This document shows positions 1-13,097 of a stretch of DNA of 36,480 bases, piece after piece. The stretch lies in the IMG/VR virus record IMGVR_UViG_2526164599_000008; one strand, written 5' to 3'. Within the stretch, counting starts at the first letter, position 1; every line of letters starts with the position of its first letter. Below the pieces are notes generated by a model that did no database searches, was not told the DNA's origin, and saw nothing but the letters and a program-made list of their open reading frames with translations. The DNA comes from a virus (taxonomy: Duplodnaviria; Heunggongvirae; Uroviricota; Caudoviricetes). Made by a program: the position numbers and the translations under genes.

Positions 1-1317
<1,317 letters not shown>

Positions 1318-1328
1318 GTGGATTGAGA

Positions 1329-1351
1329 TGTGGACTGAACTACAGTCCACA
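1329..1351. repeat. Perfect 9-bp inverted repeat with 5-nt loop (TGTGGACTG-AACTA-CAGTCCACA) just 3' of the host gene
   Basis: Read directly from the sequence. Not followed by a T-run on either strand, so not a canonical intrinsic terminator. Could be a host structured element or part of the prophage end. Confidence 0.4.
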
Positions 1352-1370
1352 TCAAGATCGTGTCCGGTTA

Positions 1371-1503
<133 letters not shown>

Positions 1504-1532
1504 CAGAACTCGCTCCAGCCTGATTGCAGATA

Positions 1533-1922
1533 TTACTCTTTTTTCTCCGTATCTACATCGGGTTCATCAGCAAATAGCTTGCCCTGCATCCGATCCAGTT
1601 CTTCTTTTCTTACCCGCTTAACCACGCTGTAGACCCACTGAAGCGAAACACCAAATTTGCGGGCCAGTTCATGGTGGTTACGTCCGTTAAACTCCCTGAA
1701 GATTTCCCGGTCGCGCTGACTGACCTTCCATACCATGCCCATCGGGAAATAAACGTTTTGCCCGCCCCAGACCTGCATCATGCGGTTCGCGACGGCCTGA
1801 CCAATCTGGTCGGCAATTGCGGGCTCAATATCAATAATCTCGCGAACGGTCTCAGAGGTATGCTGTGCCAGTTCCACCAGGAGTTCCGGCCCTTTACTTC
1901 GAAACTGATTCAGGTCGCTCAT
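1533..1922 (-). CDS. mor: Mor/C-family transcriptional activator of middle/late genes
   Basis: 129 aa. C-terminal block FREFNGRNHHELARKFGVSLQWVYSVVKR resembles the Mor/C helix-turn-helix region. GGGAG Shine-Dalgarno 6 nt upstream of the ATG. Last gene of the leftward early operon. Confidence 0.6.
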   Translation of the reverse strand: MSDLNQFRSKGPELLVELAQHTSETVREIIDIEPAIADQIGQAVANRMMQVWGGQNVYFPMGMVWKVSQRDREIFREFNGRNHHELARKFGVSLQWVYSVVKRVRKEELDRMQGKLFADEPDVDTEKKE

Positions 1923-2346
1923 GTTTTACTCCCGCAGCTCTGTGCTGCCACTTCTTCAGTTTCTCAATAACACTGCTTGCCTGTTCAGTATTGAGCCAGC
2001 GCAGGGCGCTGATGCCCGTTTCCCGCTTGATCCACCGCGCTAATGCATTTTCTGAACGGTCACGAACAATGCCGGCAGCAGCCATTTCAAGCCATAGCGC
2101 ACGGATTTTCCTGGACTGCGGATGGTTATCCAGCGGTAAACCGGAGCTGGCTTTTCTGGCAGGCTTAACGCGAAAGCCTTTCCTTTTCATGGATTCCAGC
2201 ACGCAGTTTAGTTGTGTGGTATCCATTCCTTTGGTTGAGGCTTTACCGGTCAGCCCCTGTAACATCTGGCGGTAGGTGTCTTCATCCATACCCAGTTCAT
2301 TACGGGCAATATGAATGAGCTGGATAAGACGTTGTTTAGTCATCAT
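1894..2346 (-). CDS. Mu gp16/GemA-like regulatory protein (DUF1018-like)
   Basis: Track ORF 1894..2385, start trimmed to the ATG at 2346, which is preceded by AAGGAG with a 5-nt spacer. Sequence MTKQRLIQLIHIARNELGMDEDTYRQ... resembles Mu gene-16 family proteins. Confidence 0.5.
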   Translation of the reverse strand: MMTKQRLIQLIHIARNELGMDEDTYRQMLQGLTGKASTKGMDTTQLNCVLESMKRKGFRVKPARKASSGLPLDNHPQSRKIRALWLEMAAAGIVRDRSENALARWIKRETGISALRWLNTEQASSVIEKLKKWQHRAAGVKHERPESVSK

Positions 2347-2551
2347 CGTTGCTCCTTTTACCTGCGCCACCGATATAATCGACATATAAAGGAAGCGCCA
2401 CAGGCCAGCACAGGAACATCACCGACCAGCTAATCCAGTAGCCGGCACCACTGTAACGTGAATAAAACCCTGAACGGCGGTGCAGTTCAGCAGTACACCA
2501 ACCGACAAAACAATACCAGAACAGGGCACATACAACAGATTCAGCCGTCAT
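2336..2551 (-). CDS. Small hydrophobic (membrane) protein, unknown function
   Basis: Track ORF 2336..2665 trimmed to the internal ATG (MTAESVVCALFWYCFVGW...). Two hydrophobic stretches. Short overlaps with both neighbouring genes suggest translational coupling. Confidence 0.4.
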   Translation of the reverse strand: MTAESVVCALFWYCFVGWCTAELHRRSGFYSRYSGAGYWISWSVMFLCWPVALPLYVDYIGGAGKRSNDDD

Positions 2552-2771
2552 TCTGAATATCCCCCCAACTGATATGAATATTACGGGCAGCAATGACAGG
2601 GTCGTTATTCCACCATGCACCTGACATGTATTTTTCAACCTGTTCGCGTCCGGCAATAACACCAATTGTGATCCCCGGCCTTACGTTCTTAAAAAAGGCG
2701 CGGGCAAAAAGGTATCTGGCAGATATTCGGCAGGCTTTTAATTTCCGGCTGTTACCTGATAGCGTAATCAT
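2541..2771 (-). CDS. Hypothetical early protein
   Basis: 76-aa ORF whose start overlaps the stop of the upstream gene by 4 nt. No recognisable motif. Confidence 0.35.
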   Translation of the reverse strand: MITLSGNSRKLKACRISARYLFARAFFKNVRPGITIGVIAGREQVEKYMSGAWWNNDPVIAARNIHISWGDIQNDG

Positions 2772-3451
2772 CTGGCCTCCAGTTTCTGTTGTTCCTGCCC
2801 ACTGACCGGGCGGTGCAGTCTGACGTTCTGCCCTTCACGAAACCCCGCATAGCGCGAGGCGTCGCCATTGCGGCTTCTTCCCGGTTTACGCGCCCTGGTG
2901 GTTTGCGTCTGCGGGTATTTATGTTCCAGCCACTGCTGCATCAGTTCACGTTCGTCATCGGTCAGGGCGAAGGACTGTATTTCACTGATAACGGCCAGCA
3001 CCCAGCCTTCAGCAAACTGGTCACCACGGCTGGTACGGGTGGCAGTTTTTATTCTTTTGTTCTGTGCGCTGATATACTGCTGACGCGCCTTTTTCAGCTG
3101 GCGGGCCAGCACTTCCCAGGTGTACGCAGCCAGTGCGGCCCGTTCCCGGTTGCCGTAGAACCCCACACCCGGATATGTGCCGGGGTGAATTATGGAGTTA
3201 ACACCAAATGCCTCGCGGATGATGTTCATCAGGCCCAGCATGTAGCGCGGTGGACGGAGACTGCCTGTCGGCCAGTAATGACTGATGGTTTCATCAATAT
3301 CACTCATGGCAATGTCGGAATGTGTGATGCCGTGAACATCCATCAGTTTACGGGCGCGGCGCAGTGCCAGAGCAGCCTCATACGGGTTGCCGGATGCTGC
3401 CAGCGCCAGCAACTTTTTCAGTTTTTCAATGTGTTTATCCAAGTCTGTCAT
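2768..3451 (-). CDS. DUF2786-like phage protein
   Basis: 227 aa. N-terminal IEKLKKLLALAASGNPYEAALALRRARKLM matches my memory of the DUF2786 signature. Start overlaps the upstream stop. Confidence 0.5.
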   Translation of the reverse strand: MTDLDKHIEKLKKLLALAASGNPYEAALALRRARKLMDVHGITHSDIAMSDIDETISHYWPTGSLRPPRYMLGLMNIIREAFGVNSIIHPGTYPGVGFYGNRERAALAAYTWEVLARQLKKARQQYISAQNKRIKTATRTSRGDQFAEGWVLAVISEIQSFALTDDERELMQQWLEHKYPQTQTTRARKPGRSRNGDASRYAGFREGQNVRLHRPVSGQEQQKLEAR

Positions 3452-3753
3452 TGTTCAGTATCTCCGGTGTACATGACGCCCAGCCGTGCGGCAAGGCGTT
3501 CCAGTTTTTTCTGTTTGTGGAAGTCAATCAGCCGGTCCATCCCCTGAAGGCGCAACTGCTCTGTCATGATTTCCACGTCTGCCAGCTCTGCCGCGAGGTC
3601 ACTTTCACTGCCCTGTCCGTTCAGGTTGCGGGCAGCACAGGCTGCCAGTTCAGCGGCCTCTTCTGTCAGTTTCAGGGCCTGTGCGTCCGGCCCGAAACGC
3701 TGCAGGGCCAGACGGTAGAGGGCGGTGCGGGTGAGTATGGTGTACCGTGTCAT
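3448..3753 (-). CDS. Hypothetical early protein
   Basis: 101-aa ORF, coupled to its neighbours, helical and acidic. No confident family. Confidence 0.4.
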   Translation of the reverse strand: MTRYTILTRTALYRLALQRFGPDAQALKLTEEAAELAACAARNLNGQGSESDLAAELADVEIMTEQLRLQGMDRLIDFHKQKKLERLAARLGVMYTGDTEQ

Positions 3754-3762
3754 GCTGCGCCC

Positions 3763-4035
3763 TCAGTGATTCCGGCTGACGGTGATGTGCAGACCGCCTT
3801 CTGCAGTGGTTTCCATCCGGTACGGCACCTCATGCGCTGCCGTGTGGGTTAGTGTGTTCACCAGTACCTGCAGGGCAGCCGCCTTTCCGTTGGTCGCCAC
3901 AATGGCCTGAGCGGTCATGCTGATTAGCGCCGTCAGGACGTGCTTCACATCGGTGAGGTCGCGGCATTCACACTCGTTGACATAGTGTTCAACAAGGGTT
4001 CGGGTGCGCTGTCGTGCTTCCTGTGGGGTAATCAT
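3763..4035 (-). CDS. Hypothetical early protein
   Basis: 90-aa ORF in the early operon. Start overlaps the upstream stop (4032..4035). Confidence 0.4.
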   Translation of the reverse strand: MITPQEARQRTRTLVEHYVNECECRDLTDVKHVLTALISMTAQAIVATNGKAAALQVLVNTLTHTAAHEVPYRMETTAEGGLHITVSRNH

Positions 4036-4226
4036 TGCGAGTCCTCCCTGTCAGGGCGGGAGAATTCCATGACGGGCACGTCTGCCGAAAAATGCTGGCT
4101 GCAGTACGGGCAGACCAGGGTGACGCGTACCGCAGGGATGTGGTATTTACCGGACATCACGGCGATGGCGCTGTGAAAACGCAGGGCTGTTATATCCCTC
4201 TCGCACTGAATACATTTAAATATCAT
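4032..4226 (-). CDS. Small zinc-ribbon-like protein
   Basis: 64 aa with two Cys pairs (CIQC ... CPYC). GAGGAG Shine-Dalgarno upstream of the ATG. Confidence 0.45.
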   Translation of the reverse strand: MIFKCIQCERDITALRFHSAIAVMSGKYHIPAVRVTLVCPYCSQHFSADVPVMEFSRPDREDSQ

Positions 4227-4323
4227 AATTTAATTCTCCTCTGTTTCCGGCGTGCAGAAGCCCACGGCGCTGACGCCGGAATAAAAAAGAAAATGTTTTT
4301 ATTAAATAATTAACGTGGTGTGT

Positions 4324-4854
4324 TTACTGCACATCCTGCTCAAAAGGAATTATTGAAAAATCCTCAATATCACTTTTTATGGTAATACCGGGAATATTTT
4401 TCACGGCGTCCTTTTCATTCAGGATAGCGTCTTTATTTATTTCCTCCTTTACACGGATAAAGCGCTCAAGCCCCAGACGTCTCAGTAATTCAATAACATT
4501 ATCCGCCCCACGGATACTGACTGATGGCGGACGGTTTCGCCACTGCACCTCGCCGGTGGTGAGGTTAGCGAACTTCACCTTCCCGTTGCCGGTCAGTTCA
4601 TCACGGTGTGCCTCACACCATGTCTGAATACCGGACTGCAGTTCGGCCATGCGTTTTTTCAGGCTCTCGGTGAGCGGGGCATAACGTGCGGTGATATCGC
4701 CAATGGCGTCATTCATTTCTGTTTCAGCCCTGACCAGTTCACGGTGTGCGTCACCGAGCAGTCTGATGCCCTCAATGACCTCTTCACGTGTCCCCGGCAC
4801 CCAGAGTGCTGCTGCGGCCTTGATACGTTTTGCACCTTTTGTACTTTTTGCCAT
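4324..4854 (-). CDS. gam: Gam-like host-nuclease inhibitor (Mu Gam family)
   Basis: 176 aa, Mu Gam-like length. Position just downstream of the transposition genes. Overall resemblance to Gam family proteins from memory. Confidence 0.6.
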   Translation of the reverse strand: MAKSTKGAKRIKAAAALWVPGTREEVIEGIRLLGDAHRELVRAETEMNDAIGDITARYAPLTESLKKRMAELQSGIQTWCEAHRDELTGNGKVKFANLTTGEVQWRNRPPSVSIRGADNVIELLRRLGLERFIRVKEEINKDAILNEKDAVKNIPGITIKSDIEDFSIIPFEQDVQ

Positions 4855-4881
4855 TTTTTATGATTTCTCCGGTTGTGCTGA

Positions 4882-5151
4882 TTACCACAAAGATTCCGGC
4901 CACACGACGCGACAGCCGTGCAGTTCGAAAACGCCCTGACGGAAATATCCCCTGTGGTCATGTCCGGTATACAGATAACAGGCCTTTCCCTGCTCAAGCA
5001 TGCGCATGCAATGCGCACTCCGGGAAACGCGGATGACAGGTTTGTTCCCCCTGATGGTGATGCTTTGTACATCCGTGTTCGTCGCCTTAAGCGCCATAAT
5101 GGCTGACTGCACTTTGCTGATTTGCTGGTTGATACCTGTGGTGGATTTCAT
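4882..5151 (-). CDS. Hypothetical early protein
   Basis: 89-aa ORF immediately downstream of the ATPase gene. No recognisable motif. Confidence 0.4.
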   Translation of the reverse strand: MKSTTGINQQISKVQSAIMALKATNTDVQSITIRGNKPVIRVSRSAHCMRMLEQGKACYLYTGHDHRGYFRQGVFELHGCRVVWPESLW

Positions 5152-5153
5152 TA

Positions 5154-6320
5154 TTAAACCCCTTTGACAACGTCAGCGTTGACCTGTGGAACCCCGATTT
5201 CAGCAGCCAGATTCATGGCGGCTATTACCAGGTTACTGACGGCCAGCGGATACAGCAGGCTGACCATATTTTTACGATGACTTCCCGGATTGCTCAGGCG
5301 GGCACGTATGGCATCCACTGCGCTGGCGTCCATAATGTCCGTCAGTTGTTTACCGGCCCGTTGCAGTTTGAACGTCAGAAATTCTTCAAGGTTATTGTCC
5401 AGAGGCAGAAGTTCGACCACCTCACAGCGCTGAACGACTTCACGGACTTCCATATTGCGTTCAGACAGTTTTGTCGCCAGTTCCGGCTGACCAATTAGCA
5501 CGATGGACAGCAGTTTTTTGAAACCGGACTCCAGCTCAAAAAAGCGTTTGAGGTGTTTCAGTGTCGGAATGGGCAGACTGTGGGCCTCCTCAATCACCAG
5601 AACGTGGCTGAACCCCGCCTGGCTGCTGTCTTTCAGGACGCGATGCAACTGGCGAAAGCGGGCGTCCTGACTGCGTCTGATGCTTTCCAGTGGTGCGATG
5701 GTACTGATAATGGCTTCGGCAATCGCTGCTGCCTTCAGAGTTTTCCCTTTCACATCGTTGTCTTCCATAGCGATGATGTATGGCTCGATAACAATCACTG
5801 GCGCATTCTCGCGGTTGATACGTTCAGTCAGGTCACGGCGCAGCGTGGATTTACCCGCACCGGACTCACCGATGACGGCCATAAACCCACCATGACGTGC
5901 TGTCTGGTACAACGCCTCACGCACGTAGCGAATGTCCGGGGTGGTGAACACATCATCAGAACCCTGCATGGCTTCGTCGGCGAACGGGTCACGGAAAAGA
6001 CCAAACGCTTTTTTGGTTGCTGGAAATAACACCTGTTTTTTGAGTAACATATTCTCTTCCTCACTGAGGCTCGTTTTATCTGTGGTACCCGATGTACGGG
6101 GCGTGGCCGCGCCCTGTACAGCATCAAAACTCTTCGCTGTATCAATCCCCTGACTTTCCAGCCAGGACGCAAGACGCCGGCGCACTTCTCCGGGGCTGGT
6201 GCGGGGCCACGCGTTATGATTCACAATCTGGGCCAGCGTGGCCTCAGAAACATCGACAGCTCTCGCCACCACCGCCTGTGAAATACGGGCCTCTTTCAGT
6301 TGCTGCTTCAGTACCAGCAT
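5154..6320 (-). CDS. Transposition ATPase (TnpB / Mu B-like AAA+ protein)
   Basis: Walker A GESGAGKST and Walker B-like VLVIEEAH. N-terminal HTH-like region. Track ORF starts at a GTG (6359), but the internal ATG at 6320 has GAGGAGG 5 nt upstream and lies just after the transposase stop. Confidence 0.75.
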   Translation of the reverse strand: MLVLKQQLKEARISQAVVARAVDVSEATLAQIVNHNAWPRTSPGEVRRRLASWLESQGIDTAKSFDAVQGAATPRTSGTTDKTSLSEEENMLLKKQVLFPATKKAFGLFRDPFADEAMQGSDDVFTTPDIRYVREALYQTARHGGFMAVIGESGAGKSTLRRDLTERINRENAPVIVIEPYIIAMEDNDVKGKTLKAAAIAEAIISTIAPLESIRRSQDARFRQLHRVLKDSSQAGFSHVLVIEEAHSLPIPTLKHLKRFFELESGFKKLLSIVLIGQPELATKLSERNMEVREVVQRCEVVELLPLDNNLEEFLTFKLQRAGKQLTDIMDASAVDAIRARLSNPGSHRKNMVSLLYPLAVSNLVIAAMNLAAEIGVPQVNADVVKGV

Positions 6321-6330
6321 GTTTTCCTCC

Positions 6331-8100
6331 TCAGTTGCCGTTAACAATGCTGATAACACTGCTGCGGGCCGGCGTGGTCAGCGTGGCCATGACTTCATCC
6401 AGTGCGGCTTCCGGTACGCCGTCCGGGTACTGTGCCGTTAACTGGCGGTAATGTTCCGGCGTCCAGGTAAGGCCGTTGGCGCTGAACTTCCCGCGCAGGG
6501 CTTTCGCGGCCTCCACATGAGTCATGGGACGCTGTTCAGTGCGCGGTCCGCGTACGTCAGAGGCCTGACCTCGCTTCGGCATATAGGCCGGAAGTGTGGC
6601 GTCATCAATATGTTTATACGGGTCAAGCCGCCCGCCGAACGGCAGCGCCTTCGCCTTGCGTGCGGCAGCTGCATCTGCGGCGTTGTCTGTACCGGTGACC
6701 AGCGCTTCGGTTTCTTTTGCCGCCATCTGCGCCGGGGTTTCCGGCAGGGCTTTGTAACTTTCGCCAAATACCGCCGCGCCTTCAGCAAAGCCAAACTCGT
6801 TCTTTCTGACCTCTTCGACCAGGAAGAACGTCTCGTGGCCGTCCTCACCGGTCAGAACCACCTGTGCCACATCGCTGCGCCACGGGTTACGGGTAATCAT
6901 CAGTTTTTCACCGACCAGTACGCCCGGTACCGTTGATACGTCAAATTCAGTGCCCCGGAACGAGACACGAAGTTTTGGCGTGACTTTGCGGAGTTCTGGT
7001 GCCGCCACAGCCAGTTCACGACATACCTCAACGGAAGGCGCTTTTTTCAGCTGCTCAGCAGTAATCTTCAGCCAGATATCCGTGCGGGTTTTACCGTGGC
7101 GGCTGTGAACAGCCGTGGCGTTAAAGTGGCTGCGCCATTTCGCGGCCAGCGCGTTGAGTTCTTCCAGACTGTGAACCGGCCGGAACTTCAGACCCGGCTC
7201 CAGCTTGCGTTCGATAATGTCACGCGCCTTTTCCACCTGTCCGGTGGCGCGGGCGTTATGCGGCTTGTGCGCTATCAGGTCAATGCCCAGTGAGCGGCAC
7301 ATGTTTTTCGTCATACCCGCGGTGTTTGCCGAACCGGGGTCGAGATAGAGTATTTTTGGCACGCCGTGCAGCACGTCTGCGCCGCCACGCTCCTGCATGG
7401 CGTTGATAAGCACAGAACACAGGTTCTCACCGGATTCCGCACCCGTCACATACTCAACGTAAATCCAGCCGCTGGCATGGTCGGTAATCTCGTAACTCCA
7501 CACGCGGTCACTGGCGATACGGGCAAGGTTAGCGGGTTTGTTCTTGTAGAACTTCGCGCTGTCCATCACCTGCAGCCCTTTGTGTCCATTGCTCAGGTAG
7601 TAAAGCGTGCAGAGCGAGGCATCAATCTGCCAGACATGATTGGGATGCAGACTGGCCACTTCGGTATGCGGCGCAGGAGCATCCAGTTGTTCCGGGTGCA
7701 GGCCATAGTTACGCAGGGCACGACTGATGGCATCTTCGGACAACGGGAAAAACTCACCGGTGGTTTCATCTGTTCTGCCTGCGGAGATAAAGCCGTTAGC
7801 CCGCAGGGTTTCCACTGCATCCGCGATGGAATAGAGACGCTTACCGTTCTTGCGGGTGGCCTCACGCAGTGTGGCAGATATCAGCGCGGCTTCGTCGCGG
7901 GTCAGGGCGCTGCGTCCGGCATCAGCGCGTTTTTTGCGTTTATCAGTCACAGAGACCTCCTTCAGCCTGCGCAGCAGAGTGGCGCGGGACATGCCAAGTT
8001 CAGCACAGGCAGCGTCGTATATTGCACCGCGTTTACCATGCCCCGCGTCACGTGCCGCGCGGGCGACATAAACCAGTCGTTCAGTCAGGGCAGCATTCAT
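6331..8100 (-). CDS. DDE transposase (rve/Mu-type catalytic core)
   Basis: 589 aa. Candidate catalytic residues: D in HVWQIDAS, D in ILYLDPGSAN, E about 35 residues later in GQVEKA (D,D-35-E spacing). Gene order transposase then ATPase as in transposable phages. Confidence 0.8.
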   Translation of the reverse strand: MNAALTERLVYVARAARDAGHGKRGAIYDAACAELGMSRATLLRRLKEVSVTDKRKKRADAGRSALTRDEAALISATLREATRKNGKRLYSIADAVETLRANGFISAGRTDETTGEFFPLSEDAISRALRNYGLHPEQLDAPAPHTEVASLHPNHVWQIDASLCTLYYLSNGHKGLQVMDSAKFYKNKPANLARIASDRVWSYEITDHASGWIYVEYVTGAESGENLCSVLINAMQERGGADVLHGVPKILYLDPGSANTAGMTKNMCRSLGIDLIAHKPHNARATGQVEKARDIIERKLEPGLKFRPVHSLEELNALAAKWRSHFNATAVHSRHGKTRTDIWLKITAEQLKKAPSVEVCRELAVAAPELRKVTPKLRVSFRGTEFDVSTVPGVLVGEKLMITRNPWRSDVAQVVLTGEDGHETFFLVEEVRKNEFGFAEGAAVFGESYKALPETPAQMAAKETEALVTGTDNAADAAAARKAKALPFGGRLDPYKHIDDATLPAYMPKRGQASDVRGPRTEQRPMTHVEAAKALRGKFSANGLTWTPEHYRQLTAQYPDGVPEAALDEVMATLTTPARSSVISIVNGN

Positions 8101-8103
8101 TGG

Positions 8104-9015
8104 TTATGCCTCCAGCCCGTTAATCTGTGGCGTCGGCTCAGTCAGCCATGAAGGCGCGGCATTGCCTGTTGGCTCATCCGGCAGGTCAAATGTGGAGCGC
8201 AGGCTACGCGCTGTGCTTTCCAGTTGACAGACCAGGCCTGCCATGAAGTCTCTGGGGGTATCAATCATGTTTTCAGCACAATATGCGCACAGCGTCTCAA
8301 AAGCGCTGGACAGTCGAACGGCGATAGCAGATTCCGCCTCAACCGCTAATGCTGTCACTTCCGCCCGCAGCTTCTTAACCTCTTCATCAGGCTCAGGCGG
8401 CTGAATACGGGATTTCTTCTCCAGTCTGGTGGAGAGTGAGTCTATTTTTTCATTTTTGTCAGCGAGTACGCGCTGTTGTGCTGCGTTGGTTTCGCGCGCT
8501 TCGCGCAGGGCCTGACGCAATTCACGTACTGACATGCGATCAACGTCGTCAAGCGTCAGGCCGGCAACTGTGCCGCCGTCGGCCAGTTCGGCAAGCTCTT
8601 CGTCGTCTTCTGTCATTAATTCGAAAAGTTTGGCTTTTCCCAAATGTGCCAACGTTGGCACATTTGGTTTCAGCGCCGGGGATAAGTATTTTGTCGATGC
8701 TTGCATCATTCTCACAGATGTCCGGTATGCCAGCCCCAACTCACTTTCAAGAATCTTTATAAACTCCCCGTGTGGTTCATTTTCCTTAAGGATTATCAGC
8801 CGCTTACCTGCCTCCAGCATGGCCTCAGCGCTCTGTGCCATATAAAAGCGTGCCTCATGGACAACACGATCGCGCTCATAGGGCAGACCATCGCCGAACT
8901 GTTGCATGATTTCCATGCGATGCTGTGTCATGGCGTTTAGACTGACATTGAGATCATCCGACAGCGGTACCTCGACGTTCAGTTCAGTGCTAACCGGTGA
9001 TTTGGTGCGTCCCAT
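8104..9015 (-). CDS. Hypothetical early protein with coiled-coil character
   Basis: 303-aa ORF tightly coupled upstream of the transposase gene. No confident family. Confidence 0.45.
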   Translation of the reverse strand: MGRTKSPVSTELNVEVPLSDDLNVSLNAMTQHRMEIMQQFGDGLPYERDRVVHEARFYMAQSAEAMLEAGKRLIILKENEPHGEFIKILESELGLAYRTSVRMMQASTKYLSPALKPNVPTLAHLGKAKLFELMTEDDEELAELADGGTVAGLTLDDVDRMSVRELRQALREARETNAAQQRVLADKNEKIDSLSTRLEKKSRIQPPEPDEEVKKLRAEVTALAVEAESAIAVRLSSAFETLCAYCAENMIDTPRDFMAGLVCQLESTARSLRSTFDLPDEPTGNAAPSWLTEPTPQINGLEA

Positions 9016-9025
9016 TGATTACTCC

Positions 9026-9334
9026 TTACAAACGACTACCTGAAATAACACGTTGGTTGATTTCGTTAATGCGATCCTGTGCACGTGCCATCTCGTTACT
9101 GTGGGCCATGGCGATCTGCAGCAACTGGATGCCTGGTGCGAAACGCCCGTTTTCTAGTTTCAGAGCCAACCCTTCTTCAATGAGCGTGTTAAGTGCCCGG
9201 TTGATGTTTGCCGGTGATTCGTGCAGTGCAACCGCTAGTTCCCCGTTAGAAACACCGTTCAAAGCGTGGCCACGTAAGGCCTTAAGAACGCGCAAAATAC
9301 GGGTACCTGAGCTTGATGTATTTGGTTTATTCAT
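9026..9334 (-). CDS. Small winged-helix DNA-binding protein
   Basis: 102 aa. RILRVLKAL...GVSNGELAVALHESPANINRALNTLIEEGL resembles an IclR/MarR-type winged HTH. Confidence 0.45.
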   Translation of the reverse strand: MNKPNTSSSGTRILRVLKALRGHALNGVSNGELAVALHESPANINRALNTLIEEGLALKLENGRFAPGIQLLQIAMAHSNEMARAQDRINEINQRVISGSRL

Positions 9335-9561
9335 GACGCCTCCTTAAGGATACCGGGGGTAACTTCTTTACCTATTGCAACCGATAGATCTCGCAAAATC
9401 CGATAAGTCAAACGACCGCGAGGTAGTTCACTTTTACCAGCCCAGCGACTGACTGCCTGGGTGACTGTTCGTGGTTCATAGCCCGCGTTAAGCGCGAACT
9501 GGCGCAAGCTACTGCCTCGTTCAACCAGCCGTGCCCGAACTTGTTGTTTGTTCATATGCAC
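9331..9561 (-). CDS. ner: Ner-like DNA-binding regulator (Ner/Nlp family)
   Basis: 76 aa. First gene of the leftward early operon, divergent from the repressor. HTH-like segment SLRQFALNAGYEPRTVTQAVSRW. Confidence 0.55.
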   Translation of the reverse strand: MHMNKQQVRARLVERGSSLRQFALNAGYEPRTVTQAVSRWAGKSELPRGRLTYRILRDLSVAIGKEVTPGILKEAS

Positions 9562-9643
9562 CGTGTTCCTGTTAGGTTATGATGTACTCTATTGGGTCTA
9601 TTGTACACACCCAAATGAGTGTGTCAAATTGAGATATGTTCAA
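9562..9643. promoter_or_regulatory. Divergent early promoter/operator region between ner-like and repressor genes
   Basis: About 80-bp intergenic region containing the inverted repeat ACACAC-N8-GTGTGT (around 9606..9625), a candidate operator. Confidence 0.45.
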
Positions 9644-10051
9644 ATGAGTACAAAAGAGAGATTGCGTGAAGTGATGGATGCTAATGGCATGACAATAAAG
9701 GCATTATCTAACTTATCAAAAATTCCATATCGCTCACTTCAAAACTATTTGCGTGGAGAGAGAGAACCAAACGCAGAGGCTCTTGTTGCGCTAAGCACCC
9801 ATTTGGGTGTATCGATCGATTGGCTACTTACCGGTAAAGAACATATTCCATCTAAAGAAATTGTTGCTGTACCAACACAACATCAATTCAGCCCGTCAGA
9901 CCTTAAAATGCTTGAACTTCTAAACCAGTTAGATCCTGAGGTTCGGCGAGATCTCATGCGAGGCGCTGAAGAAAAACAGCGTGTGATTGAGATGGAAAAA
10001 CAACTGAAGGAATTATCCGCAACGATTGAGCGGTTAAAAAATGTGGGTTAA
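9644..10051 (+). CDS. Immunity repressor, XRE-family HTH (Mu c-like role)
   Basis: Track ORF 9548..10051 trimmed to the ATG at 9644 (MSTKERLREVMDANGMTIKALSNLSKIPYRSLQNYL), a classic HTH_3 pattern. Divergent from the early operon. Confidence 0.65.
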   Translation: MSTKERLREVMDANGMTIKALSNLSKIPYRSLQNYLRGEREPNAEALVALSTHLGVSIDWLLTGKEHIPSKEIVAVPTQHQFSPSDLKMLELLNQLDPEVRRDLMRGAEEKQRVIEMEKQLKELSATIERLKNVG

Positions 10052-10121: not shown

Positions 10122-11129
10122 ATGTCTGAGCAGACCATTGAAGTTAAACACGTTGTAGTTCACATTTTAGACAAACAACAAAATGGAGACGCTTCTGAGA
10201 GATTGAGTCCTGAAGAAGGTCTAGTTACTGAAGCCTCCCAGCGCCTTATAAACGATATTTGTGCAAAATATGCAGGACGCACAGGTAAAGGTTATGGCTA
10301 TTTTGAAGGCGATACGGATAACTATCCTATGGAACGAATGGCTGGGGACTTTCTCGAAGGTGTTGATGATTTCTACCAAAGTTCCTGCCGAATGATGCAT
10401 CACCTGACGGAACGTTCTCAGCGAGAAAACATGGCTACTGGTGGTTATGTTCTTTTTGCAAATATCGTGATAGGACACAATGAACACCTGTTGATAGCTA
10501 TTGTAAGCGCTACCATTGGATCCACTGTCACAGATGATTTTAACATCCAAGATAGTACCTATCTTGATATTGCTAAGCTGCGTATGGCTGGGCGCATTGA
10601 CTTAACCGCGTGGGAAAGTGGCGCAGAGCGCTATATCAGTTTTCTTAAGGGGCAAGGTAATGTTTCAAACTATTTTAAACAGTTCCTCGGCTGTAATGAT
10701 GTCTTAATCGCCAAACGAGAGTCTGAAAAGTTACGTGACGTTTTAAAAGCATTTGCGGCAGAGAAAGGACTTGACGGCGCTGAAAAAGATGCATTTCTTA
10801 AGAGTGCGTTTGAACACTTACATGCACTAAGTAAGGCTGGTGAACCACTTAGTCTTGAAACCCTTGTTAATGCCATTTGGCCCCAGGCTCCCGAGGAGTT
10901 ATCTGGTAAACTTGCTGCTGAAGAGTTGGAGTTATCGGATGGCTTCGTTCCTGATGGTCGAGTCATTCGGGCTCTGGTATCTTTTAAAGGCAAGTCTAAA
11001 TATTGGGAACTTAAGTTTGACCGGGAAGGGAAAACTGAAGGCTATATTGATTATGATCCGGAAACAAATATTATCACCCTACGTAATGTACCTGAAGAAT
11101 TTAGGGAAATGTGGATGACTGAGGTTTAA
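10122..11129 (+). CDS. NdpA/YejK-like nucleoid-associated protein homologue (cargo gene)
   Basis: 335 aa, the same length as E. coli YejK. Blocks GGYVLF, LLIAIVS, YLDIAKL, RIDLTAWESGAERYISFLKG, FKQFLG align by eye with YejK blocks as I remember them. AT-richer than the flanking phage genes. Confidence 0.5.
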   Translation: MSEQTIEVKHVVVHILDKQQNGDASERLSPEEGLVTEASQRLINDICAKYAGRTGKGYGYFEGDTDNYPMERMAGDFLEGVDDFYQSSCRMMHHLTERSQRENMATGGYVLFANIVIGHNEHLLIAIVSATIGSTVTDDFNIQDSTYLDIAKLRMAGRIDLTAWESGAERYISFLKGQGNVSNYFKQFLGCNDVLIAKRESEKLRDVLKAFAAEKGLDGAEKDAFLKSAFEHLHALSKAGEPLSLETLVNAIWPQAPEELSGKLAAEELELSDGFVPDGRVIRALVSFKGKSKYWELKFDREGKTEGYIDYDPETNIITLRNVPEEFREMWMTEV

Positions 11130-11131
11130 TC

Positions 11132-12337
11132 GTGGCGATTTCATTTGAGATGCTGACAGATCTGTATCGTCGTATGGAATTCCAAGAGGGGTTTCGTGTC
11201 GGTTCGCTGTTGCTCTTAGATCAGTCCGATTGTGATCTGGTTGATACTTTGCTTGATGATCCTCGTGAATATGGTCTTTCTATTGATACAGGCACTATCG
11301 CTCCAGGTAACACGATCATCCTACGTGTGACGTCACCACGGAGTGGACTGGGACTTGTGTTTTCCACCCATGAAAAATTGCTAAATGCTCCAAAGCATCA
11401 GTGCCTTGAGCCAGCTAATTACTTCATCCTAGAAACAAAGTTTCGTAATGATGATGAAGATATCCCCGTTTTCATCAGCAACTACCGGAAGATTCTCGAG
11501 TTCGTTAACCTGCTAAAAGAGGCCGCGGCCTACTTTGATAACTCAACTTGTCAGTTAGTTTTTCTGAAAAAAGAAGTTATCAAGCTATTACCGCACTTCG
11601 CTGCAGAAAATGTACAAAATTTGCAAAGAGAGTATCTTGATAACCTTATAGCTTGTTTCAATGATGATACCCATAAGGATCAGAAGCTAGATATTCTGAT
11701 TGAAAGTATCCAAGCAGTTAGTGATGGAATTGATTCACCTCTAGTATTCGCTTATTTACTGGACAATATTCAGCGTCTGCATGAAAAGTTTCTGAAAGGG
11801 TATCGTATCTACTCTTCTGGATTCTCTTATGACAAAGTAATGGATCAACTGCGTGCTGCAAAAGTCGAAGAAATGGGTAAAATCCACAAAGCGTTTTCAG
11901 ATATCCAGAACCATATACTTGGCATTCCTGTTGCCTCTGTTATCGTAGCTACCCAATTCAAAGTGGCTACGAAATGGTCAGGCCAAGGGATAACAAACAC
12001 AATAATTCTTCTGGGATGCATTTTTGCTGCAACGTTAATCTGGCTGGCACTTTCGAACCAGATGCAATCTATAAAGGCCTTAGGCGAAGAAATTGAATAC
12101 AAAGAAAAACAGATTAATAAGGAATATTCCTTCATTAAAGATGACGTGGCTGGTGTATTTAGCAGTATTTCTGCGCGACTAGACACGCAGAAACGTACGT
12201 TCTGGATTATACGTGGTGTTCTAGTTATGGGAATTATTACCGCTATCACTGTTTATTTTTGGTACACAAAACCAGCCCTTGACTTCATGCAGTACTTGAT
12301 TCACTGCATGAAGTCTTACTATTCGGTCAAAAGTTGA
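11132..12337 (+). CDS. Unknown protein with two C-terminal transmembrane helices, operonic with the NdpA-like gene
   Basis: 401 aa. GTG start 2 nt after the upstream stop with GAGG upstream. N-terminal soluble region of about 285 aa has no motif I recognise. Hydrophobic helices ITNTIILLGCIFAATLIWLALS and FWIIRGVLVMGIITAITVYFWY. Confidence 0.55.
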   Translation: MAISFEMLTDLYRRMEFQEGFRVGSLLLLDQSDCDLVDTLLDDPREYGLSIDTGTIAPGNTIILRVTSPRSGLGLVFSTHEKLLNAPKHQCLEPANYFILETKFRNDDEDIPVFISNYRKILEFVNLLKEAAAYFDNSTCQLVFLKKEVIKLLPHFAAENVQNLQREYLDNLIACFNDDTHKDQKLDILIESIQAVSDGIDSPLVFAYLLDNIQRLHEKFLKGYRIYSSGFSYDKVMDQLRAAKVEEMGKIHKAFSDIQNHILGIPVASVIVATQFKVATKWSGQGITNTIILLGCIFAATLIWLALSNQMQSIKALGEEIEYKEKQINKEYSFIKDDVAGVFSSISARLDTQKRTFWIIRGVLVMGIITAITVYFWYTKPALDFMQYLIHCMKSYYSVKS

Positions 12338-13097
12338 GGATAATGAGTTCCTTCTTGCGACTGGATTTGCCAGTGATCTTGAGGTTGTAGCTGATATCAA
12401 CCGACTGAATATTTAGACCGTTGAATGCCTGCCGCATTTCCGGGATATCGTTCACCGATATAATCATCTTCCCTTTGATCCTGCGTGCTAAATCTGCCAT
12501 ATGATCATAATTTTCTAGTCCGAACTCCACACCATAACCTTCCGTTCCCCAGTATGGAGGGTCACAGTAGAACAACGTATGCGGGCGATCATATCGTTCT
12601 ATGCACTGTTGCCAGTCCATGTGTTCTATGACCGTTCTGGAAAGCCGCAGGTGTGCCGCTGACAGTTCTTCTTCAATACGCAGCAGGTTGAAGCGTGGCG
12701 GGGATATGGTGGAGGTACCAAAGCTGTGCTCCGCCACCTTGCCTCCAAACGCCTGCTTCTGAAGGTAGTAGAACCGTGCTGCACGCTGGATATCCGTCAG
12801 TGTTTCTTCCGGGGTGATCTGCAGCCATTTGTAGATCTGCCGGCTGACCAGCGCCCATTTGAACTGGCGTACAAATTCTTCCAGATGATGTTTTACCACC
12901 CGATACAGGTTCACCAGTTCACCGTTGATATCATTAATGACTTCGATCTTGCCGGGTACCTTAAGAAAATAGAGCGCTGCTGCCCCACAAAACGGCTCCA
13001 CATAACATTCATGCGCCGGAAACAGCGGCAGGATGTGTTTTGCAAGGCGGCGTTTGCCACCAATCCATGGAACGATGGGTAATGTCTGCATTTTCAT
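12327..13097 (-). CDS. DNA N6-adenine methyltransferase, Dam-like
   Basis: 256 aa. AdoMet motif VEPFCGAAALYF and catalytic DPPY. Opening PWIGGKRRL matches the Dam family. Convergent with, and overlapping by 11 nt, the membrane-protein gene. Confidence 0.8.
   Translation of the reverse strand: MKMQTLPIVPWIGGKRRLAKHILPLFPAHECYVEPFCGAAALYFLKVPGKIEVINDINGELVNLYRVVKHHLEEFVRQFKWALVSRQIYKWLQITPEETLTDIQRAARFYYLQKQAFGGKVAEHSFGTSTISPPRFNLLRIEEELSAAHLRLSRTVIEHMDWQQCIERYDRPHTLFYCDPPYWGTEGYGVEFGLENYDHMADLARRIKGKMIISVNDIPEMRQAFNGLNIQSVDISYNLKITGKSSRKKELIILNF

What the first reader, a model, noticed from the sequence alone, without database searches (positions are those of the whole stretch)
2336..4226. 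Cluster of six small, tightly coupled early ORFs of unknown function
Between the Gam-like gene and the GemA/Mor regulators lie six short ORFs with overlapping stop/start codons: a small membrane protein, a 76-aa protein, a DUF2786-like protein, 101-aa and 90-aa proteins, and a Cys4 zinc-ribbon protein. In Mu the corresponding semi-essential early region encodes host-takeover and anti-nuclease functions. These are therefore good candidates for anti-defence or host-manipulation proteins.
Basis: inference. Interest (0 to 1): 0.45.

Follow-up and report, generated by a model that had tools for sequence, protein, structure and literature searches.

The report
Early accessory genes of Mu-like prophage
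Six small, tightly packed genes in the early operon of a common E. coli Mu-like (BcepMu-type) prophage are real and conserved, but already catalogued and uncharacterised; one looks like a nucleotide-cleaving enzyme, and none can yet be called an anti-defence gene.

Summary
Six minus-strand ORFs (4226→2336) lie between Gam and GemA/Mor. Four junctions overlap by 4-11 nt, and all six are under purifying selection (dN/dS 0.12-0.32).

The host element is a BcepMu-type transposable prophage of E. coli, not Mu. Near-identical copies occur in 640 of 5,426 complete E. coli genomes, and all six ORFs already have RefSeq and PHROG entries.

New detail:
- The 101-aa ORF is a single-domain MazG-like NTP pyrophosphohydrolase (EExxE…ExxD invariant). 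Its C-terminus is a deletion scar that removed a seventh gene, a 71-aa membrane protein.
- The 227-aa ORF is DUF2786+DUF7168. This family is found in many phages and conjugative plasmids and has no solved relative.
- None of the six has a homologue in Mu.
- The interval is mosaic. Relatives carry a Lar-like restriction-alleviation protein or a dATP/dGTP pyrophosphohydrolase in the same slot.

The anti-defence reading stays plausible by position. Its only mechanistic precedent is the MazG-like gene (Atd1). Nothing here demonstrates it.

Verdict: an ordinary semi-essential-type early region. Interest is low to moderate.

The parts
4245..4281 (-). Conserved RNA/DNA hairpin in the 97-nt Gam-to-first-ORF spacer (4227-4323), preceded by a U-run and followed by the GAGGAG ribosome-binding site of the 64-aa ORF
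   Evidence: MFE -29.5 kcal/mol, z -3.8. Single copy in the window, with no Rfam match. The stem-loop is present in 37 of 40 distinct upstream regions of related loci, including those with DUF3164 in place of Gam. It is a local island of nucleotide identity. No U-run follows the stem on either strand, so it is not a canonical terminator.
4032..4226 (-). 64-aa Cys4 zinc-ribbon protein (WP_001295928.1; phrog_3401); near-core in this phage lineage
   Evidence: CxxC…CxxC is invariant. Found in 70 of 71 related loci. dN/dS 0.14. Sense pN/pS 0.09 against 1.28 for the antisense frame. No Lar or Ogr Pfam match at E<=1. B3 ORF7 has the same layout, but the match is weak (E 0.013 in a 40-sequence set).
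3763..4035 (-). 90-aa protein of unknown function (WP_000632578.1; phrog_3691); accessory
   Evidence: ATGA overlap with the 64-aa ORF. Found in 43 of 71 loci. dN/dS 0.32, the highest of the six. No family or PDB match.
3448..3753 (-). 101-aa single-domain MazG-like (all-alpha) NTP pyrophosphohydrolase (WP_000199400.1); its last 5-6 codons come from a deleted downstream ORF
   Evidence: phrog_2245 E 3e-33. E31, E32, E56 and D59 are invariant and E35 nearly so, giving EExxE-20-ExxD. The profile finds 10,703 representatives. Of 63 sampled, 15 hit Pfam MazG, 2 MazG-like and 2 PRA-PH. The motifs align with PDB 5ie9, E 0.013. Deletion scar.
2768..3451 (-). 227-aa DUF2786 + DUF7168 protein (WP_000130556.1; phrog_421); the one member universal in the lineage and widespread in other mobile elements
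2541..2771 (-). 76-aa protein of unknown function (WP_000631819.1; phrog_3681); accessory
   Evidence: Found in 36 of 71 loci. Some relatives carry a zinc-ribbon/coiled-coil protein (phrog_1621) or a Mu gp11-C-like protein in this slot instead. dN/dS 0.12.
2336..2551 (-). 71-aa two-pass membrane protein (WP_000123379.1; phrog_6436); near-core
   Evidence: Two hydrophobic segments. Found in 68 of 71 loci. 82-98% nucleotide identity to clade 2, like GemA and Mor. dN/dS 0.20.
4324..4854 (-). Gam (upstream flank)
   Evidence: Pfam Phage_Mu_Gam 1e-40. Replaced by a DUF3164 protein in 30 of 71 related loci.
1533..2346 (-). GemA (1894-2343/2346) and Mor (1533-1922), the downstream flank; the prophage end lies at about 1372
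   Evidence: Pfam hits. The same prophage lies at other chromosomal sites, matching from window position 1372 onward.

Best explanation
The six ORFs are genuine, co-transcribed, translationally coupled accessory genes. They sit in the early operon of a BcepMu-type transposable prophage of E. coli and are the lineage's equivalent of Mu's semi-essential early region.

**Expression (inferred).** After induction or infection they are made together with transposase A, the B-like ATPase and Gam, from the early promoter near 9600-9627.

**Composition (shown).** The set is heterogeneous.
- Three members are near-universal in the lineage: the Cys4 zinc-ribbon protein, the DUF2786/DUF7168 protein and the two-pass membrane protein.
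- Three are swappable cargo: the 90-aa protein, the MazG-like enzyme and the 76-aa protein.

**Mechanism I commit to (inferred).**
- The MazG-like protein is a Mg2+-dependent nucleoside-polyphosphate pyrophosphohydrolase.
- Early in lytic growth it removes either non-canonical dNTPs or, as shown for phage Atd1, the alarmone (p)ppGpp. Either activity would keep the host permissive during the burst of replicative transposition.
- The remaining small proteins most likely act by binding host or phage proteins or nucleic acid, for host takeover or protection of the element.
- None is expected to be required for transposition itself.
For: - **Real genes in one operon:**
- **BcepMu-type phage:** 96.8% identity to Escherichia phage PhiKM (Bcepmuvirus), and the same prophage at different chromosomal sites.
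- **Mosaic, accessory behaviour:**. The window copy lost a seventh ORF by an in-frame deletion of about 220 bp without loss of the prophage type.
- **A second NTP-pyrophosphohydrolase type in the same slot:** PF04447 (E 5e-44) in three relatives, and a Lar-like protein in one.
- **Precedent for a phage MazG-like anti-abortive-infection enzyme:**
- **Literature:** the semi-essential early regions of transposable phages are described as poorly conserved sets of small proteins of unknown function (PMC8705779). Accessory ORFs of P. aeruginosa Mu-like phages sit in the left (early) arm (PMC4378225).
Against: - No experiment or expression data were available.
- The window's MazG-like protein itself has no Pfam hit at E<=1 and no PDB sequence hit.
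- The substrate is unknown. A relationship to Atd1 beyond superfamily level was not tested.
- Four of the six proteins have no functional lead at all.
- dN/dS values give no sign of arms-race selection.
- The 71 compared loci are redundant (about 30 distinct architectures) and come from one lineage.
Confidence: 0.6

Rival explanations
1. This is a housekeeping module for phage DNA metabolism, not for host takeover or anti-defence. DUF2786/DUF7168, with its KH-like core, and the zinc ribbon bind nucleic acid and assist replicative transposition or the switch to replication. The MazG-like enzyme only sanitises the dNTP pool.
For: - DUF2786/DUF7168 is universal in the lineage (71 of 71 loci). It is conserved at the same position in B3 and Casadabanvirus phages, and also occurs in virulent and jumbo phages.
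- dN/dS is about 0.12-0.14, the same as core genes.
- PF04447 dATP/dGTP pyrophosphohydrolases occupy the same slot in relatives.
Against: - Mu transposes and replicates without any homologue of these proteins.
- The DUF2786 family also sits on conjugative plasmids that do not transpose.
- Three of the six ORFs are frequently absent from otherwise intact relatives.
Confidence: 0.25
2. These are lysogenic-conversion or superinfection-exclusion genes expressed from the prophage. For example, the membrane protein might block incoming phage DNA.
For: A small two-pass membrane protein is near-core in the lineage. A second small membrane protein is present in the undeleted variant.
Against: - There is no promoter-like site of its own, and the genes sit deep inside the repressor-controlled early operon.
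- Start and stop codons overlap with early genes on both sides.
Confidence: 0.07
3. These are spurious or decaying ORFs in a defective prophage.
For: All are 'hypothetical' in the databases. The window copy carries a deletion scar. The PhiKM record annotates an opposite-strand ORF in place of the 64-aa gene.
Against: - Purifying selection acts on all six, and the frame test favours the 64-aa ORF.
- The genes are conserved across Enterobacterales prophages and in an isolated phage.
- Near-identical copies occur in 640 E. coli genomes.
Confidence: 0.02

Closest known systems
Semi-essential early (SEE) region of phage Mu (kil … gam … gp11-gp14, before gemA/mor)
   Same: Same place in the early operon and the same kind of content: many short, tightly packed ORFs. 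Gam, GemA and Mor are homologous (phmmer 2e-65, 6e-24 and 2.5e-13).
   Different: None of the six ORFs has a detectable homologue among Mu gp5-gp14 or gp18-19. The phage is BcepMu/B3-like: the early arm is transcribed away from the late genes, and the B protein is an ExeA/AAA_22-type ATPase.
Early arms of Pseudomonas phage B3 (ORF3-ORF10) and of Casadabanvirus (D3112/DMS3-like) phages
   Same: The DUF2786/DUF7168 homologue lies at the same relative position (B3 ORF5, phmmer 1.7e-32; CF177b 8509-9180, 3e-35). B3 also has a 66-aa CxxC…CxxC protein (ORF7) and DUF3164.
   Different: The other ORFs are unrelated. The zinc-ribbon similarity is not statistically secure.
Atd1, the MazG-like pyrophosphatase of Pectobacterium phage PcCB7V (bioRxiv 10.1101/2022.06.09.495361)
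   Same: A phage-encoded single MazG-type catalytic domain. Atd1 hydrolyses ppGpp and protects against TIR-STING and retron-TIR toxicity.
   Different: tblastn of the 101-aa protein finds only 5 phage records, none from Pectobacterium. The substrate of the window protein is unknown.
Short stand-alone MazG-like NTP pyrophosphohydrolases with solved structures (PDB 5ie9, 103 aa; 2q73, 100 aa, which I recall as the integron cassette iMazG)
   Same: About 100 aa. The EExxE and ExxD motifs align.
   Different: Profile E-values are marginal (0.013 and 0.068), and designed helical bundles score just as well.
Lar family restriction-alleviation proteins (PF14354)
   Same: A Lar-domain protein occupies the slot of the 90- and 101-aa ORFs in one related prophage (L042). 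Like the 64-aa ORF, Lar is a small zinc-ribbon protein.
   Different: The window has no Lar-domain gene, and the 64-aa ORF does not match PF14354 at E<=1.

Membership tests
All-alpha NTP pyrophosphohydrolase (MazG-like) superfamily: 101-aa ORF | Metal-binding motif EExxE, then 12-28 residues, then ExxD | tested here: met
   E31-E32-A-A-E35, then 20 residues, then E56-L-A-D59. E31 and D59 are invariant, and E32, E35 and E56 are at least 90% conserved, in 63 diverse relatives.
All-alpha NTP pyrophosphohydrolase (MazG-like) superfamily: 101-aa ORF | Significant sequence match to curated family models (Pfam MazG, MazG-like, PRA-PH) | tested here: inconclusive
   The window protein has no Pfam hit at E<=1. 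NCBIfam hisI PRA-PH scores only E 0.057. Indirectly, 15 of 63 homologues hit PF03819 (best 2e-5), 2 hit PF12643 and 2 hit PF01503. phrog_2245, 'NTP pyrophosphohydrolase', scores 3e-33.
All-alpha NTP pyrophosphohydrolase (MazG-like) superfamily: 101-aa ORF | Four-helix-bundle fold superposable on solved MazG-type domains | tested here: inconclusive
All-alpha NTP pyrophosphohydrolase (MazG-like) superfamily: 101-aa ORF | Pyrophosphohydrolase activity on a nucleoside polyphosphate | not testable with these tools
   Needs purified protein.
Atd1-type anti-abortive-infection MazG | Hydrolysis of (p)ppGpp and rescue from TIR-effector toxicity | not testable with these tools
   Only a literature precedent is available.
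Atd1-type anti-abortive-infection MazG | Specific sequence relationship to Atd1 | not tested
   The Atd1 sequence was not at hand. No Pectobacterium phage appears among the tblastn hits.
DUF2786 / DUF7168 family: 227-aa ORF | Both Pfam domains above their gathering scores, in the order DUF2786 then DUF7168 | tested here: met
   PF10979 scores 37.7 bits (cut-off 23.9) over residues 8-44. PF23771 scores 91.2 bits (cut-off 25.5) over residues 46-189.
Mu semi-essential early region | Location in the early operon between the transposition genes/gam and gemA/mor | tested here: met
   Gene order is A, B, 89-aa ORF, Gam, the six ORFs, GemA, Mor, all on the minus strand.
Mu semi-essential early region | Homology of the ORFs to Mu early proteins gp5-gp14 | tested here: not met
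   phmmer --max against Mu gp5-gp19 gives a best E of 0.029 in a 40-sequence database, which is not significant.
Lar restriction-alleviation family: 64-aa zinc ribbon | Match to PF14354 | tested here: not met
   PF14354 is not among the Pfam hits at E<=1.
Known anti-phage defence proteins (PADLOC) | Match to any PADLOC model | tested here: not met
   No hit at E<=0.1 for any of the six. PADLOC models defence systems, not anti-defence proteins, so this excludes only the reading that the genes are defence cargo.

The most novel reading that the evidence does not exclude
The DUF2786/DUF7168 protein could be a general 'establishment' factor of mobile DNA. It is encoded in the early operons of transposable phages, in many unrelated virulent and temperate phages, and on conjugative plasmids. 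In pDK1 it lies 2 kb downstream of mobI among small same-strand ORFs. It has a KH-like core, an N-terminal helical hairpin and a strongly conserved C-terminal tail (PVSGQEQxKL). It might protect or mask incoming or replicating element DNA or RNA, or neutralise a widespread host defence. The swappable neighbours (MazG-like, Lar-like, dATP/dGTP pyrophosphohydrolase) would then mark an anti-defence hotspot in BcepMu-like phages.
Probability: 0.15. Interest if true: 0.6.

Novelty: new member of a known kind. Interest (0 to 1): 0.27.

Why it matters
This prophage type sits in about 12% of complete E. coli genomes, including ST131. Its early accessory genes are therefore expressed whenever a very common element is induced.

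If the MazG-like enzyme proves to be an alarmone or nucleotide hydrolase of the Atd1 kind, it would extend that counter-defence strategy to transposable phages.

A function for DUF2786/DUF7168 would annotate a family spread across phages and conjugative plasmids.

As it stands, this is a well-delimited candidate list, not a discovery.

Tried and rejected
**Searches that found nothing**
- PDB sequence searches with the single proteins and with the close-homologue profile A2 gave no meaningful hit.
- BFVD returned only uncharacterised DUF2786-type proteins.
- PADLOC and NCBIfam gave nothing useful for the six.
- Rfam found no family in 1300-9700.

**Literature**
- 'DUF2786' appears in 5 papers, none functional.
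- No paper was found on BcepMu-like E. coli early genes or on anti-defence in Mu-like early regions.

**Ideas considered and dropped**
- Zinc ribbon as Lar or Ogr/Delta: no Pfam support.
- Conserved hairpin as an intrinsic terminator: no U-run after the stem on either strand.
- Leading-region location of the plasmid DUF2786 genes: suggestive in pDK1. It is undecidable in the Acinetobacter MOBF plasmids because oriT is not annotated.
- Toxin-antitoxin pairs: no family support.

**Not done**
- The third homologue search was not spent, because the loci already gave the distribution of the small ORFs.
- The two structure jobs went to the 227-aa and 101-aa proteins, so the 64-, 90-, 76- and 71-aa proteins have no model.
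Full report
**1. What is in the sequence**

The window is E. coli chromosome carrying a transposable prophage whose end lies at about position 1372. From there onward the same DNA occurs, at up to 100% identity, at other chromosomal sites in other E. coli. The nearest isolated phage is Escherichia phage PhiKM (genus Bcepmuvirus), at 96.8% identity over 1400-5200.

The early arm is on the minus strand. It begins at a strong sigma-70-like promoter (9627→9600, 11 of 12 matches). The genes then run in this order:
- a winged-helix Ner-like gene
- a DUF3102 protein
- transposase A (6331-8100)
- an ExeA/AAA_22-type B protein (5154-6359)
- an 89-aa ORF
- Gam (4324-4854)
- the six ORFs of the finding
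- GemA and Mor (1533-2346)

The late genes run the other way from about 13.3 kb. This is the BcepMu/B3 layout, not that of Mu.

**2.

The six ORFs are at 4226→4032 (64 aa), 4035→3763 (90 aa), 3753→3448 (101 aa), 3451→2768 (227 aa), 2771→2541 (76 aa) and 2551→2336 (71 aa). Three ATGA overlaps, two longer overlaps and one 9-nt gap join them.

RefSeq annotates exactly these CDSs. Each matches a PHROG family. The exact sequences are on record on hundreds to more than a thousand contigs, nearly always as 'hypothetical protein'.

I compared 80 related viral contigs fetched with the DUF2786 alignment. Pairwise dN/dS (Nei-Gojobori) is:

| Gene | dN/dS |
|---|---|
| 64-aa zinc ribbon | 0.14 |
| 90-aa | 0.32 |
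| 101-aa | 0.14 |
| 227-aa | 0.125 |
| 76-aa | 0.12 |
| 71-aa membrane | 0.20 |
| B | 0.13 |
| GemA | 0.10 |
| Mor | 0.075 |

All six therefore code for proteins under purifying selection.

The PhiKM record annotates an opposite-strand ORF in place of the 64-aa gene. The sense frame has pN/pS 0.09 and the open antisense frame 1.28, so the zinc-ribbon reading is the right one.

**3. What each gene is**

*64 aa.* CxxC-30-CxxC with all four Cys invariant. It is present in 70 of 71 loci. There is no Lar or Ogr match. B3 ORF7 has the same size and layout, but the similarity is not significant.

*90 aa and 76 aa.* No lead from Pfam, NCBIfam, PADLOC or PHROG annotation. They are present in 43 and 36 of 71 loci.

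*101 aa, a MazG-like NTP pyrophosphohydrolase.*
- It matches phrog_2245 (3e-33). PGAP and IMG both name it an NTP pyrophosphohydrolase or pyrophosphatase.
- The hallmark EExxE-20-ExxD is conserved.
- A profile of close homologues finds 10,703 representative proteins of about 90-100 aa.
- Of 63 sampled, 15 hit Pfam MazG, 2 hit MazG-like and 2 hit PRA-PH.
- The wider profile aligns both motifs with PDB 5ie9, a 103-aa nucleotide pyrophosphohydrolase, at E 0.013.
- The window protein alone has no Pfam or PDB hit.
- I rate superfamily membership at about 0.8.

*227 aa.* DUF2786 followed by DUF7168.
- It is present in every related locus. Homologues sit at the same position in B3 (ORF5) and Casadabanvirus phages. 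Others occur in Ralstonia, Shewanella and Pasteurella Mu-like phages.
- Fold matches in BFVD extend to Tenacibaculum, Sinorhizobium, Serratia, Delftia, Mycobacterium, Gordonia and Bacillus phages. All are uncharacterised.
- It is also on 164 plasmids, 109 of them conjugative.
- The C-terminal tail is strikingly conserved.

*71 aa.* Two hydrophobic helices, present in 68 of 71 loci. At the DNA level it is as conserved as GemA and Mor.

**4. A lost seventh gene**

IAI39- and PhiKM-type prophages have a 71-aa single-pass membrane protein between the MazG-like gene and DUF2786. In the window a deletion of about 220 bp removed the MazG-like stop codon and nearly all of that ORF. The deletion lies between short TAC(A)C repeats. 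The MazG-like reading frame is left fused to the last codons of the lost ORF (…GDTEQ).

**5. The interval is mosaic**

Between the E. coli clade and a second enterobacterial clade, identities are:

| Gene | Protein identity between clades |
|---|---|
| B, GemA, Mor | 85-95% |
| DUF2786 | about 65% |
| MazG-like | about 70% |
| Zinc ribbon | about 55% |
| 90-aa ORF | 43%, or absent |
| 76-aa ORF | mostly absent |

Gam is replaced by a DUF3164 protein in 30 of 71 loci.

In the slot upstream of DUF2786:
- Three relatives carry a PF04447 dATP/dGTP pyrophosphohydrolase (E 5e-44). Two of these also have the MazG-like gene, and one has PF04447 instead of it.
- One relative carries a protein with a Lar restriction-alleviation domain (34.7 bits, above the cut-off).

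In the slot of the 76-aa ORF, other relatives have a zinc-ribbon/coiled-coil protein or a Mu gp11-C-like protein.

The loci are redundant and from one lineage, so the counts describe architectures, not independent events.

**6. Comparison with Mu and interpretation**

Only Gam, GemA and Mor have Mu homologues. None of the six ORFs does.

The literature describes such regions as long, poorly conserved sets of small proteins of unknown function (PMC8705779). It also describes the accessory ORFs of P. aeruginosa Mu-like phages as short and swappable, sitting mainly in the left (early) arm (PMC4378225).

The anti-defence hypothesis has two supports here:
- the Lar-like gene in the same slot of a relative
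- the precedent of Atd1, a phage MazG-like enzyme that hydrolyses ppGpp and blunts TIR-dependent abortive infection

Neither is evidence about the window's own proteins. No known anti-defence family was detected, and dN/dS shows no arms-race signal. A housekeeping role in DNA or nucleotide metabolism is a serious rival, especially for DUF2786/DUF7168 and the pyrophosphohydrolase.

**7. Verdict**

The ORFs are real and the description is accurate apart from the corrections above. The element and all six proteins are already in public databases, with near-identical copies of the cluster in 640 of 5,426 complete E. coli genomes. They remain uncharacterised.

This is a new, reasonably well-dissected member of a known kind of region. 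It offers one mechanistic lead (the MazG-like enzyme) and one widespread family worth a structure-function study (DUF2786/DUF7168). Interest is 0.27.

Noticed in passing
window 4245-4281 (minus strand), within the spacer 4227-4323: A hairpin, TTCCGGCGT…ACGCCGGAA, preceded by a U-run. It is almost invariant across diverged relatives, even where the upstream gene is DUF3164 instead of Gam and the downstream zinc-ribbon protein is only about 55% identical. It shows one compensatory C:G to U:A change between clades. MFE is -29.5 kcal/mol (z -3.8). There is no Rfam family. It is found only in this phage lineage, and it is not a canonical terminator on either strand.
   Followed up: partly
window 3448-3470; L003 3579-3794: The window's 101-aa ORF ends with the last codons of a 71-aa membrane-protein gene that is intact in IAI39- and PhiKM-type prophages. 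An in-frame deletion of about 220 bp removed that seventh gene.
   Followed up: yes
L042 5022-5954; L049 5444-5935; L066 4492-5106: Related prophages carry other genes in the same early interval. These are a Lar-domain restriction-alleviation protein, a PF04447 dATP/dGTP pyrophosphohydrolase, and DUF3164 in place of Gam (30 of 71 loci).
   Followed up: partly
window 10122-13097: A low-GC island (41-46% GC) lies between the CI-like repressor (9548-10051) and the late genes. It holds an NA37/YejK-like nucleoid-associated protein (10122-11129), a 401-aa unknown protein with a weak KwaA-like C-terminal region (11132-12337), and a Dam-type D12 N6-adenine DNA methyltransferase on the minus strand (12327-13097; PADLOC MTase_II 4e-115). 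The methyltransferase is a recognisable anti-restriction function elsewhere in the same prophage.
   Followed up: partly
window 9600-9627 (minus strand): A near-consensus sigma-70 promoter, TTGACA-16-TACAAT, lies upstream of the Ner-like gene (9026-9334). It is the probable early promoter for the whole 8-kb operon that contains the six ORFs.
   Followed up: no
L088 (pDK1) 6920-7621; L087 7001-7690: DUF2786/DUF7168 genes occur on conjugative plasmids inside arrays of small same-strand unknown ORFs. In pDK1 the gene is about 2 kb downstream of mobI, which would fit a leading-region location. In the Acinetobacter MOBF plasmids oriT is not annotated, so this is undecided.
   Followed up: partly
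L002 4416-4637 (PhiKM PQ738613): The PhiKM GenBank record annotates a plus-strand 73-aa ORF opposite the zinc-ribbon gene and omits the zinc-ribbon gene itself. The substitution pattern shows the annotated strand is wrong (antisense pN/pS 1.28 against 0.09 for the sense frame).
   Followed up: yes
window 1-1372: The host flank encodes a PAP2 plus dual-specificity-phosphatase membrane protein (1-1317). The prophage end lies about 55 bp downstream of it. The same prophage sits at different loci in other strains, as expected for a transposable phage.
   Followed up: partly
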